From: an uncultured virus (IMG/VR IMGVR_UViG_3300025653_003319)
Taxonomy: Duplodnaviria; Heunggongvirae; Uroviricota; Caudoviricetes
Virus record (IMG/VR): IMGVR_UViG_3300025653_003319
Direction: 5' to 3' (one strand)
DNA length: 20,000 nt
Position numbers and translations under genes: made by a program. The notes beneath the pieces are model-generated. The model saw only the letters and a program-made list of their open reading frames with translations. It was not told the DNA's origin and did no database searches. Positions 714 through 20,000 of the stretch are shown one piece after another; position 1 is the first letter of the stretch, and each line of letters starts with the position of its first letter.

Positions 714-2699
714 ATGAACGAATTTGATAAAAACTTTCACATAAACTTTAGTCCACTTTACATTGCCGCAGTTGTGATGTTTTTTCTATTATGGGCAGTA
801 GAGGCTAAAGCAGACGAGATAGAAGAAATTGTTGTAACTGCTCAACAAGAAAAAGTGGTCAAAGCAGACCCAATAACTAGCGGTAGTTTAATAAGTGCTA
901 TTATGCCAGCCTTTACTTGGAATCCAGGTGGCTATGGAGGCTTTGTAGGTTTCAATGAAAGAGGTGCTCAAACATCTCACACTTCAGTTTATGTGAATGG
1001 TATCCCGGCAAATGATCCAGGGGCAAGTTGGTATGACTTTGGACATGACTTTGCAAGTGGACAAACAGTAAAAGTAATTACTGGTGCAAATGGTGTTATA
1101 TATGGCTCAGGCAGTATGGCAGGATCAGTACTTATACAGGATACAATAGAAAGAGGTATTACACTTAGAGTAGAAGATGGTATAAACTATGTCAGAGTTG
1201 CTCCAATAGATCAGTTAGAGTTTAGTACGGTTAAAGATGGCATGGATAGTGTTCGTAATGACAATGAAGAGGAAGATAATTACGAAAACAAAACTGCTAG
1301 GTTTAATGTAGATGCAGGAGACTTTACTATTGTAGGTAAGTTTACTGAATACGAATACGACTATGACAACTGTTATGATTATAATTGGGGTCAAAGCAAT
1401 GACTGTTTACAAGACGGCCAAAGATATAATATTGCTATTAGAAATGATTATATTACAATAGGTAGAAACTATAATACTGCTGAGTATTTCACAGTAGAAG
1501 ATCCTACATATTTAAATGAGGGTTATAGAGATTATTTTAGAATAGGCAATCAAGTAGAACTCAGTCAAAGTTTAAATGTTGCATTTGGTATAGATGTAGA
1601 AAAACAGTATTACAATACAAGCAGTTGGCAAAATGTGGAAGGATCTGAAACAGTTTTAGTAAGTGATACAAGACCAGGTTCCTTTACAGATGAAAATTTA
1701 ACATATAATGATGGTACATTATTACCTTTGTGGAACGGTACAATAGAACCTGATCTTGATAATGCATATGAAGTTATACAAGGTAACGGTGTATATACTC
1801 TAACACAAATAGATGAAAAGTATTCAGACGAAAATGGAGGTATATACTTTCAAGCCAATGCTAACTTTATACTAAATTATAACTTTGGTATTAGACTGGG
1901 CAACGATGATCAGAATGCTCTTAGACTGGGTATTGAAAAAGGCGACTGGTTCTTTAATATAGGAAACAGTTTTAGAAAGCCTAATCTATATGAAAAGTTT
2001 GGCGATGGATATGTACAAGGTAATGAAGAACTAGAACCTGAAAAAGGTGTAGGCATTGAATTAGGATATGGTGTGCTAAGTGTGTTTATGTATGATTTTG
2101 AAGAATCAATAGAGTATGTTCCAGGATATTATACAGACAATATTACAACATCATTGGAATTAGATGCTGAAGCATCTGTTAATACAGATGGTACATATGG
2201 TGGTTGTGTTTTAGATCCTAATTATACAGCATCAGATGGAATGCCATTAGGTTGTGCATATGAAATTGTAGAAGATAATAATCCAGTTTACACTATGGCT
2301 ACATATTCTAACACAGGAGAGTACACCACAGCAGGTGTTAGATATGCAAATAACTTTGGTCCTGTTTTTATAATGTTAAAATATACTGATACAGACCAAA
2401 CTAGAGTACCTAAATTTGCTGGTGTATTACAATACAGCGAAGACTTTTTTGATGTAAACTTTAGATTAAAGTACGCATTTAATTTAGATAGAGCACCTGG
2501 TCCCTATGATGTATTAGAAGAAGGGCAGGAGTATTTGGAAGATCTAAATAAGTTAAACTTATATGTAACCAAAGTGTTTACAAATGGCTTAACACTTTCT
2601 TTTAAAGCAGAAAACATAACAGATGAAATTGTAGAGGTTGTTCCTTTTTATAATACACAAGGTAGAGAAATTTACTTGACATTACATTATAACTGGTAA
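714..2699 (+). CDS. TonB-dependent outer-membrane receptor, BtuB-like
   Basis: Signal peptide ending AEAKA-like (WAVEAKA|DE), TonB box EEIVVTA, plug motifs RGAQTSHTSVYVNGIPAND and GANGVIYGSGSMAGSV, FRKPNLYEKFG...GNEELEPEKG, and C-terminal ENITDE...YNTQGREIYLTLHYNW ending in an aromatic residue. Substrate assignment is less certain than the family. Confidence 0.88.
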   Translation: MNEFDKNFHINFSPLYIAAVVMFFLLWAVEAKADEIEEIVVTAQQEKVVKADPITSGSLISAIMPAFTWNPGGYGGFVGFNERGAQTSHTSVYVNGIPANDPGASWYDFGHDFASGQTVKVITGANGVIYGSGSMAGSVLIQDTIERGITLRVEDGINYVRVAPIDQLEFSTVKDGMDSVRNDNEEEDNYENKTARFNVDAGDFTIVGKFTEYEYDYDNCYDYNWGQSNDCLQDGQRYNIAIRNDYITIGRNYNTAEYFTVEDPTYLNEGYRDYFRIGNQVELSQSLNVAFGIDVEKQYYNTSSWQNVEGSETVLVSDTRPGSFTDENLTYNDGTLLPLWNGTIEPDLDNAYEVIQGNGVYTLTQIDEKYSDENGGIYFQANANFILNYNFGIRLGNDDQNALRLGIEKGDWFFNIGNSFRKPNLYEKFGDGYVQGNEELEPEKGVGIELGYGVLSVFMYDFEESIEYVPGYYTDNITTSLELDAEASVNTDGTYGGCVLDPNYTASDGMPLGCAYEIVEDNNPVYTMATYSNTGEYTTAGVRYANNFGPVFIMLKYTDTDQTRVPKFAGVLQYSEDFFDVNFRLKYAFNLDRAPGPYDVLEEGQEYLEDLNKLNLYVTKVFTNGLTLSFKAENITDEIVEVVPFYNTQGREIYLTLHYNW

Positions 2700-11703: not shown

Positions 11704-13473
11704 ATGCTTAAATTAAAAAACATCAGTGTAAAGAATTTCATGAGTGTTGGAAACAACGTTCAAGGTGTGCGGTTTGACGACAAGAACTTAACACTAGTAC
11801 TAGGTAACAATCTAGACCTAGGTGGTGACGGTAGTAGAAATGGCACAGGTAAGACTACTATTATTAATGCACTCAGTTACGCATTATATGGTGAAGCACT
11901 TACTAACATTCGTCGCGATAACTTAATTAACAAAACAAATGCCAAGGGCATGATAGTTAGTGTAGACTTTGAACTTAACGGTGTTGAATATCGTATAGAA
12001 AGAGGCAGACGTCCTAATATATTACGTTTCTTTGTTAACGGTACTGAGTCAGGTGATCAAGAGCAACAAGGCGACAGCAGAGAAACACAAAAACACATTG
12101 AAAAAATAATTGGCTTTACTCACGAAATGTTTAAGCATATTGTTGCACTAAACACATACACTGAACCTTTCTTAGGCATGAAAAATAACGATCAGAGAGA
12201 CATGATTGAGCAACTACTTGGTATACAGGAGTTGTCAGAAAAAGCAGAAACACTCAAAGAAAGAATGAAGGATACTAGAGACAGTATCAAGGAAGAGGAA
12301 ATTCGAATCAATGCTGTCAAAGATGGCAATGCTAGAATGGAAAAGAATATCAAAGAAATCGAAAGCCGCAGTATGGCCTGGGAAGCCAATAAGAAATCTA
12401 AACTATCTGAAATGGCTGATGCTCTAGAAGAAGTCAACGAACTAGATGTAGACGAAGAAATTGCAAAGCATAATGCATTAGTTGAAATAAAAGATCACGA
12501 AGCAAATTTAAATGTATTAGTAAGTAATATCACTAACACAGAAACCAGTATTAAAAGAAGTAATACTAAACTGCAAACACTAGAAGCAAATTTGGCTAAA
12601 GCAAAAGAAGGTACATGCCCTGCTTGTGGACAAGATACAGCACATTTAGACACACATGAAGAATATACGGCCGATTTAAACACCGAAATAACAGAGGAAA
12701 GGACATATAACAACACCCTAATCACTAAAGAAAAAGAGTTAAAAACAGGCGTAGAAATGCTAGGACCTGTTCAAGAACGCCCTAAAACCTTCTATAGAAC
12801 ACTAGAAGAGGCCCTTACTCATAGAAATAATGTAGATAACTTAATACAAAGTATTGAAGACAAGAACAACGAAGAAAATCCTTACATAGAACAAATAGAA
12901 TCTATGAAACAAACTGGTATACAAGAAGTCAGTTGGGATATTATAAATGAACTCACAGCATTAAAAGATCACCAAGAGTTCTTGTATAAACTGCTAACAA
13001 GCAAAGACAGTTTTATCCGTAGACGTATTATTGATCAAAACATTGCTTACTTGAATCACAGACTGGCACACTACTTAAATGCTATTGGTTTGCCACATGA
13101 TGTTAAATTTAACAGTGACCTAAGTGTAGAGATCACAGAGTATGGCAGAGACTTAGACTTTGATAATTTAAGTAGAGGTGAACGTAACAGACTAATACTG
13201 AGTTTGAGTTGGGCATTCAGAGACATATATGAAAGTCTTAATCACCCAATGAACTTTTTATGCATTGACGAACTTATTGACAGTGGTTTAGACGGTGTTG
13301 GTGTAGAGAATGCATTGGGCATACTCAAGAAAATGAGCAGAGAACAAAACAAAAATATCATGCTTATATCACACAGAGAAGAACTCAGTGGTAGAGTAAA
13401 TGATGTATTATATGTAATCAAAGAAGGCGGCTTCACTAGTTACAACACTGATACGGAATATGTGGAAAGTTAG
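11704..13473 (+). CDS. gp46: Recombination ATPase subunit (T4 gp46, Rad50/SbcC-like)
   Basis: Walker A NGTGKTT, coiled coil with zinc hook CPACG, signature LSRGE, Walker B/D-loop IDELIDSGLD, H-loop ISH. Confidence 0.95.
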   Translation: MLKLKNISVKNFMSVGNNVQGVRFDDKNLTLVLGNNLDLGGDGSRNGTGKTTIINALSYALYGEALTNIRRDNLINKTNAKGMIVSVDFELNGVEYRIERGRRPNILRFFVNGTESGDQEQQGDSRETQKHIEKIIGFTHEMFKHIVALNTYTEPFLGMKNNDQRDMIEQLLGIQELSEKAETLKERMKDTRDSIKEEEIRINAVKDGNARMEKNIKEIESRSMAWEANKKSKLSEMADALEEVNELDVDEEIAKHNALVEIKDHEANLNVLVSNITNTETSIKRSNTKLQTLEANLAKAKEGTCPACGQDTAHLDTHEEYTADLNTEITEERTYNNTLITKEKELKTGVEMLGPVQERPKTFYRTLEEALTHRNNVDNLIQSIEDKNNEENPYIEQIESMKQTGIQEVSWDIINELTALKDHQEFLYKLLTSKDSFIRRRIIDQNIAYLNHRLAHYLNAIGLPHDVKFNSDLSVEITEYGRDLDFDNLSRGERNRLILSLSWAFRDIYESLNHPMNFLCIDELIDSGLDGVGVENALGILKKMSREQNKNIMLISHREELSGRVNDVLYVIKEGGFTSYNTDTEYVES

Positions 13474-13917
13474 GTGAGCAACTGGACATACAACGGAAAG
13501 GCAGTAGACAACTTACCCGAAGATTGCGAAGCATTCGTGTATCTAATTACTAACAACACAAATAACAAAAAGTATGTAGGTAAGAAACTAGCAAAGTTTA
13601 AAACTACTAAACCACCACTCAAAGGCAAAAAGAATAAACGCCGTGGTTTCAAAGAAAGCGATTGGCAAACTTATTGGGGCAGTTCAGACAATCTAAAAGA
13701 AGACGTAGAAGCACTAGGTGAAGATAAATTTACCAGAGAGATTTTATACTTTTGTCCTAGCAGAGGCGTTGCTAGTTATATAGAAGCAAGAGAACAATTT
13801 GAAAGAAAAGTGTTATTGCGTGATGACTACTACAATGGTATTATCAACGTTCGAGTAGGTGGTTCAAAAATCTTACGTGAAGGCGTTAAAGATTCACTCC
13901 ATAATCCAGATACATAA
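13474..13917 (+). CDS. GIY-YIG family nuclease-like protein (stand-alone, T4-like phage type)
   Basis: AFVYLITN...KKYVGKK (GIY-YIG variant), YWGSS, REIL, conserved E (YIEAREQF) and YYNG; GTG start directly after the gp46 TAG. Confidence 0.8.
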   Translation: MSNWTYNGKAVDNLPEDCEAFVYLITNNTNNKKYVGKKLAKFKTTKPPLKGKKNKRRGFKESDWQTYWGSSDNLKEDVEALGEDKFTREILYFCPSRGVASYIEAREQFERKVLLRDDYYNGIINVRVGGSKILREGVKDSLHNPDT

Positions 13918-14391
13918 ACTCCATCTAGTACCAGAAATAACTTTGCTTACTTCATGTTCTGTATCACCTGGAAAAACTATTCCGTCCCCTGCTTTTAGTT
14001 CTACAGGCTTATCCTCAATATAAAATATCCCGCCTTCAAACTCGTCATTGAGGGGAATACATATAGAGTACTTTGATAGATCTTTGTGTTTAGTACAAGT
14101 GTCATTTTTGTTATAATAATTAGCATAGAAAACATTATGATTTGTTATTATGTATGGTTCTGAATCTATACTTACTGGCATGATCAAACTGCTAACATAC
14201 TCTGCTAACTCCTGTGTTAATCGTAACCGGTGCGTATTAAATGTTTTATGTGTGTTATTCCAGTTGGTGTCAGTCCAGTAACCAGGTACCATTGTAAGAC
14301 CCCCAGGGTTGGGAGATTCGTCTGGTAATTTGTTTATTATTTCAGAACACTGATCTTTAGTCAAAATGCCGGTGATCGTAAAATGCTCCAT
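13894..14391 (-). CDS. 2OG-Fe(II) oxygenase (prolyl 4-hydroxylase-like)
   Basis: HxD (HKD), SICIPLNDEFEGG, GDGIVFP, distal H (EHEVSKV) and GTRWSL with the 2OG-binding Arg. Confidence 0.88.
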   Translation of the reverse strand: MEHFTITGILTKDQCSEIINKLPDESPNPGGLTMVPGYWTDTNWNNTHKTFNTHRLRLTQELAEYVSSLIMPVSIDSEPYIITNHNVFYANYYNKNDTCTKHKDLSKYSICIPLNDEFEGGIFYIEDKPVELKAGDGIVFPGDTEHEVSKVISGTRWSLCIWIME

Positions 14392-14396
14392 AGCAA

Positions 14397-14404
14397 TATT
14401 TATG
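14397..14404 (-). promoter_or_regulatory. Putative late promoter CATAAATA, 5 nt before the ATG (likely leaderless transcript)
   Basis: Minus strand reads CATAAATA TTGCT ATG; no Shine-Dalgarno. Confidence 0.55.
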
Positions 14405-14459
14405 ACTAGGATTACTCAAAAAATGTTATAAGCAACATCATAAGACGATAACTATTTGC

Positions 14460-14880
14460 TGAAGAACACAAAAAACACGGCACACTCAGACACAAAGTCT
14501 AACTCACATTACGGCACACAAATAGGACTATACACCCGCCCCAACCGAGGCATTGAATATCGGGCTCTTTGACAATCCGGCAATGGAAACACCCGGTGCG
14601 AGATTCTGGAGATGTATAGCGGCAAAGATACAAACACACGACAAACAGTATTAGAAGGATGTAGGCTCTGAGAAAAAGCAACCTACAAATTGATATAACT
14701 AAACTCTACAAGGTTATAACAATTTCCGTGAGATTCGAGACGGTAGTGTATGGGGACAAAAGGCTCACTGGTTCCTAATAGCACCCGAGTTAGAGATGGT
14801 AATGGTTCACTTGATGACACCTGACATTGTTCTCCTTGCATAAGGAGAATTATGGCTCAAGTTACTTGATAACTTCTTTT
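14460..14880 (+). ncRNA. Candidate large structured non-coding RNA of unassigned family (boundaries approximate)
   Basis: No credible ORF and higher GC than flanks. Helices: 14528-14534/14613-14619; CCGG..TG-GAAA-CA..CCGG (14577-14596); TGTAGG/CCTACA (14660-14687); AATTG-TATAAC/GTTATA-CAATT (14688-14724); CCGT/ACGG (14726-14743); TTCTCCTT/AAGGAGAA (14830-14849). A/C-rich unpaired linkers. Confidence 0.6.
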
Positions 14881-14887
14881 AAAAAAA

Positions 14888-14952
14888 TTGCAAACAAAAA
14901 CTGATTGAACGAAGTGAATGAAGTTTGCAGTTGGCAAAGACACGAAGTGTCT
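14888..14952. repeat. Cluster of inverted repeats with GAA-triloop hairpins
   Basis: TGCAAAC/GTTTGCA (14889-14895/14923-14929) enclosing GAACGAAGT-GAATGAAGT, and perfect AGACAC-GAA-GTGTCT (14938-14952). Confidence 0.6.
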
Positions 14953-14965
14953 ATAAACATTAACA

Positions 14966-14973
14966 CATAAATA
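14966..14973 (+). promoter_or_regulatory. Putative late promoter CATAAATA, 5 nt before the ATG (likely leaderless transcript)
   Basis: Reads CATAAATA TTAAC ATG; no Shine-Dalgarno. Confidence 0.55.
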
Positions 14974-14978
14974 TTAAC

Positions 14979-15875
14979 ATGATACCAGTAGAAGATAATT
15001 GGTTACACATAAAACATGAATTTCTTGAAGCATGTGATAACTTAAACAATAACAGTTTCATCGACAACCTCATGACTTTTAGAAACTTAGGATTGTTTAA
15101 ACTTTTATTGGATAAACAACACAACGGTTTATCAGGACATCCACAAGACTTCCTAGAATGTGTATTGGCTATAGCAGAGCATGATGTAACAGTTGCACAT
15201 GAGTTTGCCAAGATAGGCAGTATGTGTTTTCTTGTGCAACAGTTTCCACAACATGTAGCAGAGTCTGTGTATAAGGATTCCCCTGATGAAATCATAGTTA
15301 AAACAAACAGCGAAGCACCTGAGTATGCCGATTGGATAATAAAGCAAGATGATGCTGGATATATGCTGGGCAGGAATGTAAAAAATTTTAAGCCGGAGCA
15401 TACTGTATCTTTCCGCGACCTACTAGACCCACAGCATGATAATTACATACTTAAATTAAGTTGGTTCCAACTGTATAACAGAGTATTAGTGTGCAGTCAC
15501 TTAGGGGGTCTACAACGCATTATAAACGTCGCTATGCAACACAATACACATCAAGGGTTCATTGGTATAGCGGCACAAGAACTCGATGCTATGCGTCTTG
15601 TAATGCACAGAAACATTAACCATGCATTACTGCATTTAAAACACAATGAACAAATACCAATGTTTGATCGTACCAAGTATAAATTACAAGCAAGTGTAGT
15701 TCCTGGTAATGTGATTAATTGTGTTTCAGAGTATTGTTATCTATCCGACGAAATCGAATCTATAGTAGACCAGTTAGAACAACTTGACTTAGAGCATTTG
15801 ATAAACGAGCATGATGATGGTGTTAACCACGTGGAACAATTAAAAGGCAATAACAGTAAAGACTTATTCCTCTGA
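14979..15875 (+). CDS. Acyl-CoA-dehydrogenase-fold flavin-dependent monooxygenase-like protein (HsaA-like), internally shortened
   Basis: LGLFKLLLDKQHNGLSGHPQDFLECVLAIAE, FPQHVAESVY, LKLSWFQLYNR...HLGGLQ and AAQELDAMRLVMHRNI...EQIPMFDRTKYKLQAS resemble the N- and C-terminal helical domains of HsaA-type oxygenases; the middle beta domain appears largely missing. Confidence 0.6.
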   Translation: MIPVEDNWLHIKHEFLEACDNLNNNSFIDNLMTFRNLGLFKLLLDKQHNGLSGHPQDFLECVLAIAEHDVTVAHEFAKIGSMCFLVQQFPQHVAESVYKDSPDEIIVKTNSEAPEYADWIIKQDDAGYMLGRNVKNFKPEHTVSFRDLLDPQHDNYILKLSWFQLYNRVLVCSHLGGLQRIINVAMQHNTHQGFIGIAAQELDAMRLVMHRNINHALLHLKHNEQIPMFDRTKYKLQASVVPGNVINCVSEYCYLSDEIESIVDQLEQLDLEHLINEHDDGVNHVEQLKGNNSKDLFL

Positions 15876-16145
15876 TGGTGATTGAGGTGCAGTATCAGGT
15901 ATCATTTCCTGTTTCATTTCATTATCTTTTTTACCGCCGTTCTTGGCAGTAATATACGAACTAAAAGATTGTAGTACCATAACCTGATCGACTACGCCCA
16001 TATGCCAGGCAGTAGGCCAGTCAATAGCACCTTCAGAATACATTACAAAATCAGCAATGCCCTTTGTGATATCTTCTGCCTGCTGTTCTAGACTTCCTAG
16101 ATAGTCCCTGATTTGCTCAGGGTCTGCCCCACCTAGGAATTTAAG
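15864..16145 (-). CDS. Uncalled -1-frame extension (93 aa) of the gp26-like gene; gp51/tail-chaperone 'T'-like domain
   Basis: Open -1 frame from the slippery site to TAA at 15866-15864: LKFLGGADPEQIRDYLGSLEQQAEDITKGIADFVMYSEGAIDWPTAWHMGVVDQVMVLQSFSSYITAKNGGKKDNEMKQEMIPDTAPQSPSEE. It fills the whole gap, and its first ATG (codon 35) has no obvious RBS. Confidence 0.75.
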   Translation of the reverse strand, partial: LKFLGGADPEQIRDYLGSLEQQAEDITKGIADFVMYSEGAIDWPTAWHMGVVDQVMVLQSFSSYITAKNGGKKDNEMKQEMIPDTAPQSPSEE

Positions 16146-16151
16146 AAAAAA
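16094..16151 (-). other. Programmed -1 ribosomal frameshift signal
   Basis: In-frame heptamer T TTT TTC (16151-16145), spacer TTAAA, then stem TTCCTAGGTGG/CTATCTAGGAA (11 bp with 2 G-U) capped by inner hairpin CCCTGA-GCAAA-TCAGGG. Confidence 0.75.
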
Positions 16152-16978
16152 CCTACTGGATCGTAGTTTATAGGTGTAGTGTAAACATGTTCACACTCAC
16201 CGCATTGCATTTCTACTTCTTTTTGGATGCCACCATTGTTAATGCTAGAAACTGCATCATTTAATTCTATGCCAATTGCTTTTTCTACATTATCTAAAAA
16301 GTCTGCAATTTGTTTTACATCGTCAACAACAAGTTCTGTATCTGGTATTGTGATACTTACTATAGAATTAAGAATAACTTCGTAGTTCATTGTGCTAAGT
16401 TTTTCCAGTGCATCACCTAATGCTTTTAATTGTTCGTCACTGTTATTTACATCTATATTTTGAAACTGTCTATTTTGTTCTATAACTGCCTTGGCACCTT
16501 GTATGGTGTGCATGTAATTTGTAGGCGATATTAATACTTTTAAACCGTTTGATAACACAACTTCTTTGAGTGCTTCGATCTCTTGTGATTCTGCTAATGC
16601 AACAGATAAGTCTAAATCGAATCTGTTTGGCTCATTGCATTCTGGACAGTTTCTATCAATTTCCATAAATTTAGTATCTGAACTTGCTTGTCTAATTGCA
16701 ATCAGCAATACTTCCATATCTGGAGCAAGTAGTAAAGCAGGATTTTTTACAGCAGGAACACAACTCTTAACAAGTTTTATAACTGCATCACCATTTAATA
16801 GTGCGTCTGGGTTTTTTGTAAGAATGTCATCTTTGGCTGTCATTGGGTAAACTGGTAGTTCACCAACTTCGGTCATTTCAACAACATCTTTGCTATAAAA
16901 ATCAGTACCACTTGGTAATGCTACATATAACTTGGGATTTCTGTAAAAATCTGCTAAAGGGTTAGTATTCTGTGTCAT
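16133..16978 (-). CDS. gp26: Baseplate hub assembly chaperone (T4 gp26-like)
   Basis: NPLADFYRNPKLYVALPSG, PVYPMTAKDDILTKNPDALLNG, DMEVLLIAIRQAS, two CxxC motifs (CPEC, CGEC) and C-terminal ...DPVGFF; RBS GGAGAG. Confidence 0.8.
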   Translation of the reverse strand: MTQNTNPLADFYRNPKLYVALPSGTDFYSKDVVEMTEVGELPVYPMTAKDDILTKNPDALLNGDAVIKLVKSCVPAVKNPALLLAPDMEVLLIAIRQASSDTKFMEIDRNCPECNEPNRFDLDLSVALAESQEIEALKEVVLSNGLKVLISPTNYMHTIQGAKAVIEQNRQFQNIDVNNSDEQLKALGDALEKLSTMNYEVILNSIVSITIPDTELVVDDVKQIADFLDNVEKAIGIELNDAVSSINNGGIQKEVEMQCGECEHVYTTPINYDPVGFFLNS

Positions 16979-17010
16979 ATTCTCTCCAATATGTGATGTT
17001 TTAATAAAAA

Positions 17011-17060
17011 CGATAAATATAACTATCGAAGCATCACTTTATTTGTAGTGTTATTTATCG
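17011..17060. promoter_or_regulatory. Pair of face-to-face late promoter motifs CGATAAATA (+ 17011-17019; - 17052-17060)
   Basis: Two identical 9-mers in opposite orientation in the 113-nt divergent intergenic region, each pointing to the distal gene. Confidence 0.65.
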
Positions 17061-17091
17061 ATTATAATATACTCAGTTTACAGGAATTGAA

Positions 17092-20000
17092 ATGACAGAC
17101 ATTGTAATAACTAATACCGAGGGTGTAACTAGCACTATTCAGAATCTTCCTGCATGGGCAACAGAAGCCACGCAGAAAAATATGCAAACCTTACTGAAAG
17201 GTTTAGGTACCAGTTCTCAAAAGATCGAGGCTATCATGCGATTACAATTAAAAGGTTATAAAGAGACTACTAAAAAAACTGCGGATGGTAATAAAGAAAT
17301 ACAGAAATTACTCAAAGTATTAGACAGCAATGATAAAAAAGAACAAAAAGAAGATAAAGCCGCTAACAAGGCCATGGAAAATGCTATCAAAGAACTCAAC
17401 AATCTCACTGAAGACAGTTTAACGCAATTAGGCAAGTTAGGTAGAAACACTAATGATCAATCAGACAATCTTAATAAAATTTTAAAGGATCTGAATAATT
17501 CTGGTGACGGTATTATGAGTTTTGCAAGTGTAGGCGGATTTGCATTGGGCGGATTTGCAAAAGCAGTTATGGGCGTTACCAAGATAATGGGTGCATTAGG
17601 TCTAGCAGTACTAGGAGCATTAAAGTATATAGGAAGTAGTTTTGTAGACACATTCAAAATACTTAATAATAGTTTAAGTCAAGGCACAGGAGGCATATTA
17701 GGTCTAACAACCAATATTGAAAATGTTGCAAGGTCGGCAAACCTGGCTGGTATGAGTTTAGATGAATTTGCCACATTTGCACAAGCAAACAGTAAAATTC
17801 TTAGGATACTAGGTGCTGAAAATTTTGCAAATTTATATAGTACTACACTTTTAACAACTAATGGATTACTTGCAATGGGCATGACAGCAGATGATTCGGT
17901 TGAAAGCATAATGACTGAATTAGAATATAGACGTAGATTTGGATTAGTGTTAAATCAAAATAGCGGAGAGTTACAAACAAGTTTATTGAGATCTGCCAGA
18001 GAACTAAGAATATTTGCTAATGCTGTGGGTATGTCAGAAGCAGATTTGCGAAACGAATCACAAATACGAGAAGATCACACCGATCTCATGCAGTCACAAG
18101 TAAAAACCATGGGCGGAAACACAATGGAACTTGCCAATAATGCTCAAACCATAAGCAGGACCTTAAGTGCAATAGGTGGACAAGGTCTTATAGATCCAAT
18201 ATTTGAGGCAATATCCAGAGGTGCTACTGGACTTTCAAGTGATTTTATCACTCTAGGTCAGAACATGCCTGAATTAATAAGCATGATAGAAAAAGAAGCG
18301 GCCAGGTTTGATAGAGGAGCAGGCACACTAAATGCAAACTTAGGCTTTGACTTAATACATTTGCTTAGAAATACCACACAACAACAAAGAGATTATATTG
18401 AGTCCATGCAAGAAGCAGGTATTGAAGGTGCGGCAGATTTACAAAACATGCTCAGAAAAGCACAGGCATTGTCCGAGGAAGCCATTCAGTCAATGAAAAA
18501 AGATTTAGATCCCCAAACGATGTCTGTATTAAACGTATTTAACAGGCTAGGGTTTGTGATCAACCAAGTAACTGCCACATTAGGAGATATTGGTAAAACG
18601 TTTGCCTTGGAATTTTTAGGTTTTGGTAAAACACTAGATGAAAACGGTAACGCAACCTATGATTTTACAAAAGGTGTCGAGTCAATGACTAAAAATATTA
18701 AAAAGTTTGCAACAAACGTATTTGGATATAATAGTCCAATAACAGATTCTTTTGATAGCCTTGCAAATTACATCGACAATATGTTCCTACCTCAAGGAGC
18801 AGATGAATCAGATGCAACGTATCAAGCCAGACTCGATGATGCACGAACTATGTTTGTATCAACTATCTCAAATTTTGCTCAAAACTTAGCAAGGGATCTG
18901 CAGGAACAAATCAAGCAAGGCACTTTATTTAGTTCTATAAAAGATTTCTTTATTACTTTCTTTGATGAGTTGCGAGTATCAATTTATAATGCAACAGGCG
19001 GAGTGTTATTTGGGGATGCAGTACACGAAATACAAGCAGGACGATTTATTAGTGGCAACATAGGTGCATCTGAATTTGGATTACATGCAGGTGATTTATC
19101 TGGAACTGAAAGAAAGAAAACTTCACAACTGCTATTTGGTGGTATAGTAGAAGAAGCAAAAAGACTTAACATCTCAGAAGACGATATTAACAAAATGATA
19201 CCTTTAAAAAGAGGTGTAGCATTCGGAGATCAAACGGCATTTAACCAAAAACGAGCAGTTAGTGCCATGGATAATGTCCAAGATGGATTTTCAGAAATCT
19301 TTGAATCTTATTTTGAAGGCTATGGTACTAATCTTAAAATGAAAGTAGGTGTAGATGAGGATCAAGCAGATAAAGTGTTAGCAGTACTACAAGAAAGAAT
19401 CAAACTTGTACAAGCATTCAACGATAGTTCTAAAGATACTGTATTTAATTTTATTGACAATGCAGAAAGATTAGGACTCAACTTTTCCCCAGGGCAGTTA
19501 AGTAGGATAAATTATACTTCTGATATGAATAATGTTCTAGAAGATATTAATAACGGTACACTAGTACTAAGTAATGACATTGACGAAGATAACACAGCAG
19601 AAGCAAATAGGATATTAAATAGATTACAGGGAATATATAATCCAACTTTAGGTCAAACAAATTTAAGAAGATCAAGTGGGTTTGACATGCAGGCCTATGC
19701 TCAAATGACTCTTGCAAAACTTGGTTATGACTCGGATTATAATAAAATGTCTGATCCGACTATGGCCGGTCTTTCTAGTTCAGTAGATGTTAGTAAATTT
19801 ATAACATCCTACAAAGATGCCATGGCAGATGGCGAAATGGATCACAAAGAAACAAAACAGTTAATTGCTACTCTTAATCAATTAAGCAGTAAAATTGACA
19901 CTAATGACAGCGATAGTCGACTTTTAATAACAGGAATTGAAAGCCTAATTAAGGCACAAGATGACCTTACCAATGAAATTAGAGCCGATAACGCATCATA
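17092..20000 (+). CDS. Tape-measure-like protein (at least 969 aa; not closed within the window)
   Basis: ATG at 17092 after AGGA; continuous frame (MTDIVITNTEGVTSTIQNLPAWATEATQK...) to the edge, ending ...ADNAS + TA (a stop may fall at 19999-20001). Helical, Ala/Gly/Leu-rich, with a hydrophobic segment (GGFALGGFAKAVMGVTKIMGALGLAVLGAL); adjacent to the tail chaperone gene. Absent from the ORF track. Confidence 0.7.
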   Translation, partial: MTDIVITNTEGVTSTIQNLPAWATEATQKNMQTLLKGLGTSSQKIEAIMRLQLKGYKETTKKTADGNKEIQKLLKVLDSNDKKEQKEDKAANKAMENAIKELNNLTEDSLTQLGKLGRNTNDQSDNLNKILKDLNNSGDGIMSFASVGGFALGGFAKAVMGVTKIMGALGLAVLGALKYIGSSFVDTFKILNNSLSQGTGGILGLTTNIENVARSANLAGMSLDEFATFAQANSKILRILGAENFANLYSTTLLTTNGLLAMGMTADDSVESIMTELEYRRRFGLVLNQNSGELQTSLLRSARELRIFANAVGMSEADLRNESQIREDHTDLMQSQVKTMGGNTMELANNAQTISRTLSAIGGQGLIDPIFEAISRGATGLSSDFITLGQNMPELISMIEKEAARFDRGAGTLNANLGFDLIHLLRNTTQQQRDYIESMQEAGIEGAADLQNMLRKAQALSEEAIQSMKKDLDPQTMSVLNVFNRLGFVINQVTATLGDIGKTFALEFLGFGKTLDENGNATYDFTKGVESMTKNIKKFATNVFGYNSPITDSFDSLANYIDNMFLPQGADESDATYQARLDDARTMFVSTISNFAQNLARDLQEQIKQGTLFSSIKDFFITFFDELRVSIYNATGGVLFGDAVHEIQAGRFISGNIGASEFGLHAGDLSGTERKKTSQLLFGGIVEEAKRLNISEDDINKMIPLKRGVAFGDQTAFNQKRAVSAMDNVQDGFSEIFESYFEGYGTNLKMKVGVDEDQADKVLAVLQERIKLVQAFNDSSKDTVFNFIDNAERLGLNFSPGQLSRINYTSDMNNVLEDINNGTLVLSNDIDEDNTAEANRILNRLQGIYNPTLGQTNLRRSSGFDMQAYAQMTLAKLGYDSDYNKMSDPTMAGLSSSVDVSKFITSYKDAMADGEMDHKETKQLIATLNQLSSKIDTNDSDSRLLITGIESLIKAQDDLTNEIRADNAS

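What the first reader, a model, noticed from the sequence alone, without database searches (positions are those of the whole stretch)
14460..14880. Large ornate ncRNA candidate that I cannot assign to a known family
Seen: an intergenic stretch of ~590 nt in an otherwise tightly packed genome. Domain 1 is closed by CTATACA/TGTATAG and holds CCCG/CGGG, GCC/GGC and a GAAA-tetraloop arm. Domain 2 has TGTAGG-CT-CTGAGAAAA-AG-CAA-CCTACA (T-loop-like), an 11-bp interrupted stem with loop TAAACTCTACAAG, CCGT/ACGG and TAGTG/CACTG. Possible long-range or pseudoknot pairings: CTCTA (14704-14708) with TAGAG (14791-14795), CCCCA (14539-14543) with TGGGG (14751-14755), TATTAG (14649-14654) with CTAATA (14775-14780). 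G-U pairs and A/C-rich linkers favour the + strand; CGATAACTA (14446-14454) is one mismatch from the late promoter motif. Known: phages carry large structured RNAs such as GOLLD and ROOL. Inference: a possibly undescribed phage RNA class (scaffold, ribozyme or RNP component).
Basis: partly seen in the sequence, partly recalled or inferred. Interest (0 to 1): 0.85.

Follow-up and report, generated by a model that had tools for sequence, protein, structure and literature searches.

The report
New large structured phage RNA
The gap between two genes of this marine T4-like phage encodes a roughly 500-base, intricately folded RNA that many related phages share, that matches no catalogued RNA family, and whose job is still unknown.

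Summary
Window ~14455-14955 (+ strand) is a real, conserved, pseudoknotted non-coding RNA. It is longer than the reported 14460-14880.

- **Family size:** relatives occur in 154 of 203 fetched IMG/VR loci.
- **Structure:** on 45 sequences under 95.5% identical, a 94-pair model with two pseudoknots is 95.1% paired. Shuffled columns give 84.4% and slid partners 32-44%. Compensatory changes occur in 61 of 94 pairs, and 0 of 500 shuffles reach this.
- **Strand:** G-U cells outnumber A-C cells 361 to 50, which sets the + strand.
- **Known families:** Rfam 15 and ARAGORN give nothing. The region is not coding.
- **Expression:** metatranscriptome contigs of three studies cover it as a discrete, deeper piece.

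Whole-region folding energy is no better than shuffles.

New observations:
- The RNA almost always lies just downstream of a SegE-like GIY-YIG nuclease gene.
- Its 3' part carries a hairpin-masked Shine-Dalgarno-like site, an invariant AUG and a mostly five-codon mini-ORF.
- Two internal direct repeats stay identical to each other in all 54 sequences while differing between phages.

Function is unknown. My best guess is a stand-alone, late-transcribed, trans-acting RNA that engages ribosomes or proteins.

The parts
13474..13917 (+). SegE-like GIY-YIG nuclease gene (147 aa, GTG start abutting the gp46 stop). It is the near-constant upstream neighbour of the RNA.
   Evidence: Pfam PF19835 SegE_GIY-YIG E 9.9e-34. 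A GIY gene lies upstream on the same strand in 44 of 46 distinct tier-1 RNA variants that have 300 nt or more of upstream sequence.
13894..14391 (-). 2OG-Fe(II) oxygenase gene inserted between the GIY-YIG gene and the RNA, in this phage and some relatives only.
   Evidence: Pfam and PHROG matches. It is absent in L006, L010, L012, L013 and L016, where the GIY gene abuts the RNA. An X3 contig joins 13883 to 14446.
14411..14454 (+). Remnant of the original GIY-YIG 3' coding end, finishing in the conserved motif CGATAACTA (14446-14454). This is a candidate late-type promoter of the RNA.
   Evidence: It aligns with the last codons and TAA stop of the GIY gene in relatives that lack the oxygenase insertion. 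The motif xATAAxTA is kept in the 54 sequences. It is one mismatch from nATAAATA, which is enriched upstream of ORFs. Promoter function is inferred.
14455..14522 (+). A/C-rich 5' leader of variable length, with 1-5 GGC[A/U] motifs often 9-10 nt apart and an optional small hairpin (14488-91/14497-14500).
   Evidence: Length 46-79 nt; composition A 40%, C 28%, G 15%, U 17%; 42 of 45 sequences have at least 2 motifs. Alignment views.
14528..14619 (+). Domain 1, a multi-helix junction. P1 14528-34/14613-19; P2 14544-48/14560-64; P4 14565-68/14608-11 (weak); P3 14577-80/14593-96 plus pair 14573/14600.
   Evidence: Paired cells: P1 98.9%, P2 94.5%, P3 block 77.2% with all 7 pairs changing on both sides, P4 71.2%.
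14627..14652 (+). Hairpin P5 (GAUAC/GUAUU) with a conserved ACGACAAACA loop.
   Evidence: 100% paired; 1 of 5 pairs changes on both sides.
14660..14795 (+). Domain 2, the most conserved core. P6 14660-65/14682-87 closes the invariant loop CUCUGAGAAAAAGCAA. P7 14688-14700/14712-24. P12 14741-43/14785-87, P11 14746-49/14781-84, P10 14752-57/14771-76. Pseudoknot 14728-32/14764-68 runs into the P10 loop. Pseudoknot 14704-07/14792-95 runs from the P7 loop.
   Evidence: All helices are 96-100% paired with changes on both sides. RNAalifold recovers P6, P7 and P10-12 on its own. In 35 distinct diverged sequences, the 14728-32/14764-68 pseudoknot, which the model does not encode, is 84.7% paired; the other pseudoknot is only 44.7% paired.
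14805..14818 (+). Direct repeat A (GUUCACUUGAUGAC).
   Evidence: Identical to repeat B at every variable position in 54 of 54 sequences. Constant differences are an extra C and G in place of A.
14830..14849 (+). Hairpin P13. Its 3' strand (14843-49, AGGAGAA) is Shine-Dalgarno-like.
   Evidence: 100% paired; 3 of 7 pairs change on both sides. The 3' strand is always RGG[A/U]GAR.
14852..14872 (+). Mini-ORF AUG GCU CAA GUU ACU UGA UAA. The AUG is invariant and lies 2-3 nt after the P13 hairpin, 5 nt after the GGAG core; the stops lie in repeat B.
   Evidence: The SD-like site plus AUG is present in 54 of 54 tier-1 sequences. 41 of 54 have five codons followed by UGAUAA. Similar arrangements were seen by eye in several tier-2 sequences. 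Translation was not tested.
14861..14873 (+). Direct repeat B (GUUACUUGAUAAC), 47-59 nt after repeat A.
   Evidence: Analogous repeats 53-66 nt apart occur in tier-2 relatives. No third copy turns up in the flanks of 45 loci, apart from one chance match.
14888..14952 (+). 3' domain. P14 14888-95/14930-37 encloses a GA-rich region. The terminal hairpin P15 is 14938-43/14947-52.
   Evidence: P14 is 97.5% paired with 7 of 8 pairs covarying. P15 is 100% paired with 5 of 6 covarying. Metatranscriptome contigs end at 14952 and 14958. No U-tract terminator is found.

Best explanation
Window ~14455-14955 (+ strand) is the gene of a stand-alone, roughly 0.5-kb structured non-coding RNA. A whole clade of marine and freshwater T4-like myoviruses shares it.

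**Shown**
- It folds into an A/C-rich leader, a junction domain, a doubly pseudoknotted core and a 3' domain.
- The fold has been kept through many compensatory changes.

**Inferred**
- It is made from its own late-type promoter (xATAAxTA), which overlaps the end of the neighbouring GIY-YIG gene.
- It ends at the terminal hairpin and acts in trans as a folded RNA or RNP late in infection.

**Most likely mechanism, and the weakest step**
- The conserved core is a platform that binds a phage or host factor.
- The 3' module recruits ribosomes through a hairpin-gated Shine-Dalgarno site and a five-codon minigene.
- The RNA would therefore act on, or sense, the translation apparatus.

The GIY-YIG gene is a linked neighbour, inherited together with the RNA, and is not an obligatory partner.
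For: **Structure**
- 95.1% of 4088 cells are paired, against 84.4% in shuffles and 32-44% with slid partners.
- 61 of 94 pairs change on both sides, and 0 of 500 shuffles reach any measure. This is on a MAFFT alignment of 45 sequences under 95.5% identical.
- RNAalifold recovers the nested core on its own.
- Diverged relatives keep the core.

**Strand**
- 361 G-U cells against 50 A-C cells.

**Not coding**
- Variability shows no 3-nt periodicity.
- 370 of 384 deletion runs are not multiples of 3.

**Not a leader for the downstream gene**
- The downstream gene differs between loci: the 298-aa ORF, a baseplate hub on the other strand, or gp46 on the other strand.

**Own transcript**
- The 5' motif is kept even where the oxygenase gene separates the RNA from the GIY gene.
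- RNA-library contigs of three studies cover 14497-14958, 14478-14952 and 14581-14816. Their depths are 17.2, 7.4 and 20.4, against 0-5 in the adjacent bins.

**Ribosome module**
- RGG[A/U]GAR plus an invariant AUG occurs in 54 of 54 sequences.
- 41 of 54 have five codons and UGAUAA, although the peptide sequence itself varies.

**The GIY gene is not obligatory**
- The Melnitz phage has a 73% identical GIY gene but no such RNA beside it or anywhere in its genome.
- Only 24 of 80 GIY loci match the core model at E < 0.001, and 31 at E <= 1.
Against: - No raw reads were available, so the strand, the ends and the promoter of the transcript are not shown. Contigs in RNA libraries may include DNA.
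- No sigma-70-type promoter and no intrinsic terminator fit the proposed ends.
- ATAACTA itself is not enriched upstream of ORFs: 2 of 65 against 0.9 expected.
- Whole-region folding energy is ordinary.
- The SD-like sequence could be conserved simply as one strand of hairpin P13. A strict SD-AUG pattern was found in only 12 of 29 GIY loci that match the core model, and in 0 of 30 that do not. The mini-ORF is therefore not universal in the wider family.
- The tight linkage to the GIY gene (44 of 46; 61 of 67 gp46-anchored loci) is also what a functional pair would show.
- The identical repeats A and B have no place in this explanation.
Confidence: 0.55

Rival explanations
1. The RNA and the GIY-YIG nuclease are one functional cassette. 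The RNA regulates, targets or protects against the short nuclease, which has no DNA-binding domain, in the way other nuclease-associated RNAs work. The co-varying repeats A and B would be its specificity elements.
For: - A GIY gene lies directly upstream on the same strand in 44 of 46 tier-1 variants and abuts the RNA in 7 of 16 tier-2 variants.
- 61 of 67 gp46-anchored loci carry both, and none has an empty slot.
- The pair occurs in both orientations between gp46 and the hub gene (L085, L098, L356, L360).
- The protein is only 147 aa with a Lys/Arg-rich insert.
- Repeats A and B vary between phages but never within one.
Against: - GIY genes 70-80% identical commonly lack a detectable RNA: 30 of 59 loci with enough room, plus the complete Melnitz genome.
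- Six tier-2 RNA variants have no GIY gene in the upstream flank, and three have it on the other strand.
- No segment of the RNA matches another place in the 90-kb contig beyond chance; the best are 13-15-mers at E >= 0.04.
- No third copy of the repeat occurs in the flanks.
Confidence: 0.15
2. It is a cis-acting untranslated region. Either it is a long 3' UTR controlling expression of the GIY-YIG gene, or it is a leader-peptide attenuator for whatever lies downstream.
For: - It starts at the GIY stop codon in most loci.
- It carries a hairpin-masked SD and a mini-ORF of the kind seen in leader-peptide control.
Against: - It persists with its 5' motif where an opposite-strand gene separates it from the GIY gene.
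- Downstream genes differ and are often convergent.
- Metatranscriptome contigs of the RNA are deeper than, and separate from, those of both neighbours.
Confidence: 0.08
3. It is a DNA-level element such as a replication origin, a homing-endonuclease target or a regulatory region. The leader repeats would be iterons, 14874-14887 an A/T-rich unwinding stretch, and repeats A and B protein-binding sites.
For: - GGC[A/U] motifs are spaced 9-10 nt apart.
- Direct repeats A and B are kept identical, as operator-like sites that co-evolve with a binding protein would be.
- An A-rich stretch is present.
Against: - Compensatory changes keep 13-bp and pseudoknot pairings.
- G-U is tolerated seven times more often than A-C, which a DNA structure would not allow.
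- The stretch is over-represented in RNA libraries.
Confidence: 0.05
4. It is a very diverged member of a known family that the models miss, such as a two-piece tmRNA, a group I intron or RNase P RNA.
For: - Phages of the Melnitz and pelagimyophage group carry two-piece tmRNAs and glutamine riboswitches (PMC9004378, passages read).
- The RNA has pseudoknots and a short frame ending in tandem stops.
- The neighbouring GIY-YIG protein scores weakly against the 'group I intron endonuclease' family (E 4.8e-4, below the cut-off).
Against: - Rfam 15 gives no tmRNA, intron or RNase P row even at E <= 10.
- ARAGORN finds none.
- I saw no acceptor-stem or CCA end, and no T-arm, when reading the sequence.
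- The RNA interrupts no gene: gp46 is full length.
Confidence: 0.03

Closest known systems
GOLLD and ROOL (large ornate RNAs often carried by phages; Rfam families; structures in PMC12286853, search listing and abstract only)
   Same: It is a large (~0.5 kb), multi-domain, pseudoknotted RNA. It is phage-borne, has no assigned function, and was found by comparative analysis of metagenomic sequence.
   Different: No sequence or structure match to any Rfam model. No tRNA genes lie nearby; that GOLLD and ROOL often sit beside tRNAs is recalled, not checked. It carries a mini-ORF and is linked to a nuclease gene. Whether it oligomerises is untested.
HEARO / omega-RNA of IscB and TnpB (structured RNA beside a nuclease ORF; recalled, see PMC13565253 and PMC10690162, search listing only)
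   Same: A large structured RNA immediately beside, and partly overlapping the end of, a small nuclease gene. The pair is found in both orientations within one genomic slot.
   Different: The nuclease is GIY-YIG, not RuvC or HNH. Close homologues of the nuclease occur without the RNA. No guide-like match was found. No transposon ends were seen.
Free-standing Seg/Mob homing endonuclease genes of T4 beside conserved genes (for example segB in the tRNA region, and mobA with the gene 60 bypass insert); recalled, no paper read. The one search tried failed on a term of fewer than 3 characters and was not repeated.
   Same: A SegE-family GIY-YIG gene sits next to a conserved RNA gene in a T4-like phage. 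A ~50-nt hairpin-containing segment flanked by matching sequences resembles, in layout only, the gene 60 take-off and landing arrangement.
   Different: The gene is near-universal in this phage clade rather than sporadic: 61 of 67 loci and no empty site. No cleavage site is known. The repeats lie in a non-coding RNA, not in a protein gene.
Dual-function RNAs and phage minigenes (for example lambda bar minigenes and RNAIII; recalled)
   Same: A structured RNA carrying a very short SD-led reading frame whose peptide sequence is not conserved.
   Different: Translation is not shown. The structured part is far larger and pseudoknotted. The frame's stop codons lie in a repeat that is mirrored upstream.
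csRNAs predicted from IMG/VR by Fremin et al. 2023 (PMC10690425; abstract and section 2.1 read)
   Same: Same data source (IMG/VR intergenic regions) and same kind of evidence (covariation).
   Different: Those candidates are 29-151 nt, so none can be this ~500-nt RNA as a whole. Four motif strings were absent from the 6 supplementary files that could be searched. Files 1, 2 and 4, which hold the alignments, could not be searched, so sub-helices of this RNA may be listed there.

Membership tests
Any Rfam 15 family (including GOLLD, ROOL, tmRNA types, group I/II introns, RNase P, HEARO) | Score at or above the family's gathering threshold | tested here: not met
   0 matches over the whole window. 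At E <= 10 on 14300-15050 there are only SNORD56 (17.5 bits, cut-off 36), SNORD111 (17, cut-off 46) and U4 (11.1, cut-off 46).
tmRNA (one-piece or two-piece) | tRNA-like domain with acceptor stem and T-arm, plus a tag reading frame, as detected by ARAGORN | tested here: not met
   ARAGORN finds 0 genes in the window. There are no Rfam tmRNA rows. The short frame has an SD and an AUG, which tmRNA tag frames lack (the latter is recalled).
Group I intron carrying a GIY-YIG endonuclease | Interrupts a host gene; ribozyme core recognised by the family model | tested here: not met
   gp46 upstream is full length (98% coverage against phage homologues). There is no Rfam intron row. The GIY protein scores 20.2 bits against TIGR01453, whose cut-off is 56.
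Nuclease-guide RNA systems (omega-RNA type) | Constant co-occurrence of nuclease and RNA | tested here: not met
   RNA to nuclease: 44 of 46 tier-1 variants. Nuclease to RNA: 24 of 80 loci at E < 0.001, and none in the Melnitz genome.
Nuclease-guide RNA systems (omega-RNA type) | A variable guide segment matching a target | tested here: inconclusive
   No match beyond chance within the 90-kb contig. Targets in other genomes were not searched.
Seg-type free-standing homing endonuclease (the neighbouring gene) | GIY-YIG catalytic domain of the SegE family | tested here: met
   PF19835, E 9.9e-34, 116.7 bits against a cut-off of 25. GIY, YIG, Arg, Glu and Asn motifs are visible in the translation (the motif assignment is from recall).
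Seg-type free-standing homing endonuclease (the neighbouring gene) | Sporadic presence or absence among close relatives | tested here: not met
   Of 67 gp46-anchored loci with 700 nt or more of room, 0 lack both the GIY gene and the RNA. The more distant PA5oct lacks both.
Box C/D RNA / K-turn RNP | C (RUGAUGA) and D (CUGA) boxes forming a K-turn, with a family model match | tested here: not met
   UGAUGA is present in repeat A, but CUGA is not conserved. The SNORD rows fall far below threshold.
Translated minigene / leader peptide | SD, start codon, short frame and stop, all conserved | tested here: met
   54 of 54 tier-1 sequences have SD-like plus AUG. 41 of 54 have five codons plus UGAUAA. 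The evidence is sequence only.
Translated minigene / leader peptide | Ribosome occupancy or a peptide product | not testable with these tools
   Only assembled contigs of RNA libraries were available.

The most novel reading that the evidence does not exclude
The RNA is the programmable or regulatory subunit of the neighbouring GIY-YIG nuclease, which lacks a DNA-binding domain. The two internal repeats, identical within each phage but different between phages, would be its specificity code. This would be an RNA-dependent GIY-YIG system used in competition between phages.
Probability: 0.08. Interest if true: 0.95.

Novelty: categorically new. Interest (0 to 1): 0.8.

Why it matters
Large, highly structured RNAs of unknown function are rare, and they have repeatedly led to new biochemistry.

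- **Abundance and support.** This RNA is common in marine and freshwater viral metagenomes. It appears in metatranscriptomes, and its covariation is strong enough to justify structural and functional work at once.
- **Three unusual features give direct experimental handles.**
  - Near-obligate linkage to a GIY-YIG nuclease gene.
  - A hairpin-gated ribosome-binding site with a five-codon frame inside a non-coding RNA.
  - Two direct repeats that co-vary in parallel rather than as base pairs, which implies an unknown partner or copying process.
- **Annotation.** It shows that a 'non-coding gap' in an abundant group of ocean phages holds a conserved gene that current annotation misses.

Tried and rejected
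**Searches with no result**
- Rfam at gathering score and at E <= 10.
- ARAGORN.
- blastn against named phages.
- tblastn of the 298-aa neighbour against named phages.
- This scan's earlier findings, by place and by sequence.
- A 21-nt core pattern in 185,579 prokaryote genomes: 0 matches, so there is no sign of a cellular or prophage copy.

**Methods that gave little**
- Whole-region MFE is not distinctive.
- RNAalifold on the full MAFFT alignment gave a poor structure and was replaced by a covariation scan.
- mafft-qinsi is not installed.
- The sigma-70 promoter and intrinsic terminator scan gave nothing that fits.
- The first SD-AUG regular expression was wrong and returned zero everywhere. 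It was corrected.

**Ideas considered and dropped**
- Guide-like complementarity to the phage contig: chance level only.
- An internal or flanking partner for repeats A and B: none found.
- Coding potential: rejected. The frame that opens at AUG 14796 gives unrelated peptides of 10-46 residues.
- VIPR vrRNA-like GGY/NN repeats (bioRxiv 10.64898/2026.04.26.720920; abstract and outline only): the leader repeats have a 9-10 nt period and no RAMP protein is nearby, so I did not pursue it.

**Literature gaps**
- The search on SegB failed on a term shorter than 3 characters and was not repeated.
- Supplementary files 1, 2 and 4 of PMC10690425 could not be searched.

**Metatranscriptome caveat**
- Parts of the laid stretch without cover, and the habitat labels of the runs, are not used as evidence.
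Full report
**Setting**

The window is part of a 90,575-base IMG/VR virus record. Its genes mark a T4-related myovirus:
- late sigma factor gp55;
- gp47 and gp46 recombination nuclease subunits;
- baseplate and tail-lysozyme proteins.

The nearest named gp46 is that of the Pseudomonas jumbo phage PA5oct, at 53% identity.

The finding lies in the 587-nt gap 14392-14978. On one side is a 2OG-Fe(II) oxygenase gene on the minus strand (13894-14391). On the other is an unannotated 298-aa ORF (14979-15875). Just upstream of the oxygenase lies a 147-aa SegE-type GIY-YIG nuclease gene at 13474-13917 (Pfam E 9.9e-34).

**Is it a known RNA?**

- Rfam 15 gives no match at gathering thresholds over the whole window.
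- With permissive filters on 14300-15050 it returns only three chance-level rows: SNORD56, SNORD111 and U4, at E 1.3-7.4, all far below their cut-offs.
- ARAGORN finds no tRNA or tmRNA.
- blastn at distant sensitivity finds nothing among 50,697 named phage records.
- The minimum free energy of the gap is no better than dinucleotide shuffles (z = -0.93 on +, -0.18 on -). I give it little weight, because the element turns out to be pseudoknotted with long single-stranded linkers.

**Relatives**

- The 298-aa neighbour retrieved 16 IMG/VR loci. In these the gap is 77-84% identical at the nucleotide level, where the protein is 69-92% identical.
- An nhmmer profile of the first alignment matched 154 of the 203 loci then held.
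  - 109 were full-length matches at 190-600 bits, giving 69 distinct sequences ('tier 1').
  - 45 were weaker matches, mostly to the central domain only, giving 39 distinct sequences ('tier 2').
- A 21-nt core pattern is absent from one genome each of 185,579 prokaryote species. The RNA looks strictly viral.

**Structure**

I aligned 45 tier-1 sequences under 95.5% identical with MAFFT, with no structural input (A1). I then scored a 94-pair model derived from a covariation scan.

Whole-model result:
- 95.1% of 4088 cells form standard pairs.
- Shuffled columns give 84.4%, and partners slid by 1-3 columns give 32-44%.
- 61 of 94 pairs show changes on both sides, in 460 cells against 122 expected.
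- No shuffle out of 500 reaches any of the five measures.

Individual helices:

| Helix | Coordinates | Cells paired | Pairs changed on both sides |
|---|---|---|---|
| P1 | 14528-34/14613-19 | 98.9% | 2 of 7 |
| P6 | 14660-65/14682-87 | 98.5% | 4 of 6 |
| P7 | 14688-14700/14712-24 | 96% | 12 of 13 |
| P10-P12 | nested, 14741-14787 | 99-100% | 6 of 13 |
| P13 | 14830-36/14843-49 | 100% | 3 of 7 |
| P14 | 14888-95/14930-37 | 97.5% | 7 of 8 |
| P15 | 14938-43/14947-52 | 100% | 5 of 6 |
| Pseudoknot, P7 loop | 14704-07/14792-95 | 100% | 4 of 4 |
| Pseudoknot into P10 loop | 14728-32/14764-68 | 100% | 4 of 5 |

Weak parts are P4 (71%), the inner pairs of the P3 extension, and the optional leader hairpin.

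Further support:
- RNAalifold on the core alone recovers P6, P7 and P10-12, with 23 of 36 pairs showing compensatory change.
- G-U cells outnumber A-C cells 361 to 50, which sets the + strand as the RNA strand.
- I built a covariance model of the core (R1) and aligned 37 diverged relatives to it (35 distinct rows once the window's own row is added). On that alignment the nested helices stay 83-95% paired.
- The 14728-32/14764-68 pseudoknot, which the model does not encode, stays 84.7% paired with 4 of 5 pairs covarying.
- The other pseudoknot falls to 44.7% there. Either the alignment of the loops is poor or that pairing is tier-1 specific.

Four items are right: the domain-closing stem, the T-loop-like hairpin stem, the long interrupted stem, and CTCT/AGAG.

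Five are not. CCCG/CGGG, CCCCA/TGGGG, TATTAG/CTAATA, CCGT/ACGG and TAGTG/CACTG are together 74.4% paired, against 74.2% in shuffles, with no covariation.

**Not coding**

- Column variability shows no three-base periodicity (0.58, 0.58, 0.61).
- 370 of 384 deletion runs are not multiples of three.
- The longest stop-free stretch has a median of 68 codons.

**Expression**

Fourteen runs recorded as RNA hold part of the stretch; the 20 holding rows of all kinds come from 15 studies. Only assembled contigs were available.

Laid on 12000-17500, contigs of three studies cover the RNA as a separate and deeper piece:
- X2: 14497-14958, depth 17.2, with flanks at 2-4.
- X4: 14478-14952, depth 7.4, with flanks at 0-4.5.
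- X1: 14581-14816, depth 20.4, with flanks at 1-5.

Contigs cannot show strand or true ends, and DNA can be present in RNA libraries. This is a hint of an abundant discrete transcript ending at the terminal hairpin, not proof.

**Neighbourhood**

The constant neighbour is the GIY-YIG gene, not the downstream gene.
- Among distinct tier-1 variants with 300 nt or more of upstream sequence, 44 of 46 have the GIY gene upstream on the same strand. It abuts the RNA in 33. In 11 it is separated by an inserted oxygenase gene, as in the window.
- Where it abuts, the GIY stop codon is the TAA inside CGATAACTA.
- In the window, about 40 nt of that original GIY 3' end survive next to the RNA (14411-14454), although the oxygenase gene now lies between them. 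This argues that the RNA's start signals sit there.
- The motif is one mismatch from nATAAATA. That sequence lies within 80 nt upstream of 11 of 65 ORFs of the contig, against 0.7 expected. ATAACTA itself is not enriched.
- Anchoring on gp46 instead, 61 of 67 loci with enough room carry GIY plus RNA.
  - Four show GIY only, and three of those have under 1,010 nt of room.
  - Two show the RNA inverted.
  - None has an empty slot.
- The pair occurs in both orientations between gp46 and the hub gene (L085, L098, L356, L360).
- PA5oct has neither the GIY gene nor the RNA.

The dependence is one-sided.
- Of 80 loci encoding GIY proteins 70-91% identical, the core model matches 24 at E < 0.001 and 31 at E <= 1.
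- Thirty of the 59 loci with 700 nt or more of room have no match, although many keep a 400-700-nt stretch without long ORFs. Some show weak similarity to the 3' part of tier-2 RNAs.
- The cultured Methylophilales phage Melnitz has a 73% identical GIY gene next to nrdB, followed by ordinary small ORFs. It has no match to the core model anywhere in its genome.
- Six tier-2 variants have no GIY gene in the upstream flank.

I therefore read the GIY gene as a linked, co-inherited neighbour. A functional pair is not excluded.

**Unexpected features of the 3' third**

1. **A ribosome-binding layout.** The 3' strand of hairpin P13 is always RGG[A/U]GAR, which is Shine-Dalgarno-like.
   - An invariant AUG (14852-54) follows 2-3 nt after the hairpin, 5 nt after the GGAG core.
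   - It opens a frame of five codons followed by UGA UAA in 41 of 54 sequences. In the window this reads AUG GCU CAA GUU ACU UGA UAA.
   - The peptide varies between sequences (MTQHT, MAQVT, MAQLS and others).
   - Similar layouts are visible in several tier-2 sequences. They are not universal in the wider family.
2. **Two direct repeats.** A (14805-18) and B (14861-73) lie 47-59 nt apart and flank P13.
   - They carry the same base at every variable position in 54 of 54 sequences (column entropies 0.7-1.3 bits).
   - They always differ by one extra C in A, and by G in A where B has A.
   - Tier-2 relatives have analogous repeats with the same G/A difference.
   - There is no complementary partner inside the RNA, and no third copy in the flanks.
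   - Parallel covariation of this kind points to a shared external partner or a copying process. I could not explain it.
3. **The leader.** The 46-79-nt leader is A/C-rich and carries 1-5 GGC[A/U] motifs, often 9-10 nt apart.

**Literature**

- Four full-text searches found no description of this RNA.
- Fremin et al. 2023 (PMC10690425; abstract and section 2.1 read) predicted 8,495 structured RNA candidates of 29-151 nt from IMG/VR. Parts of this RNA may be among them. My motif strings were absent from the six searchable supplementary files, and the alignment files could not be searched.
- The Melnitz paper (PMC9004378; passages read) reports two-piece tmRNAs and glutamine riboswitches in this phage group, not this RNA.

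**Verdict**

A real and, as far as I can tell, undescribed class of large structured phage RNA.
- **Shown:** conservation, fold, strand, non-coding nature, linkage to the GIY-YIG gene, and presence in RNA libraries.
- **Inferred:** its own late-type promoter, the 3' end at the terminal hairpin, and action in trans.
- **Speculative:** ribosome engagement through the minigene module, or partnership with the nuclease.

Noticed in passing
window 13894-14454: A 2OG-Fe(II) oxygenase gene on the minus strand is inserted near codon 140 of the GIY-YIG gene. About 40 nt of the original GIY 3' end remain stranded beside the RNA. Relatives and one metatranscriptome contig (joint 13883 to 14446) lack the insertion.
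   Followed up: partly
L085, L098, L356, L360: The GIY-YIG plus RNA pair lies in the opposite orientation between the same two flanking genes (gp46 and the baseplate hub). This suggests the pair moves or inverts as one unit.
   Followed up: partly
window 714-2699 and 166-711: A 661-aa phage ORF has a TonB-dependent-receptor plug domain (Pfam E 3e-8). A 181-aa ORF matches only the C-terminal part of the nucleoside phosphorylase family. Both are unusual cargo for a T4-like phage.
   Followed up: no
window 14979-15875: The 298-aa ORF downstream of the RNA has no Pfam or PHROG match and no relative in named phages. Its N-terminus weakly resembles flavin-dependent monooxygenase subunits (NCBIfam E 1.2e-6, far below the cut-off).
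   Followed up: no
G000 whole contig; window 14965-14972: [ACG]ATAAATA lies within 80 nt upstream of 11 of 65 ORFs (0.7 expected), four times exactly 13 nt before the ATG. This leaves no room for a Shine-Dalgarno site and suggests near-leaderless late mRNAs.
   Followed up: partly
L232, L233, L237, L238, L244, L248 and other GIY loci without a core-model match: These loci still have 400-700 nt without long ORFs after the GIY gene, and some show weak similarity to the 3' part of tier-2 RNAs. More diverged or different RNAs may follow this nuclease gene family.
   Followed up: partly
L127-L201 (tier 2): Tier-2 relatives keep the central domain and a terminal hairpin. Their 5' domain is different, and their 3' internal helix reads CUUCGAGCG-UAA-GCGAAG. 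The family is therefore modular.
   Followed up: partly
L285 (Melnitz MZ577097.1 30449-30889): The Melnitz homologue of the GIY-YIG gene is annotated only as a hypothetical protein and sits directly after the ribonucleotide reductase small-subunit gene. This recalls the position of mobE in T4 (recalled).
   Followed up: no
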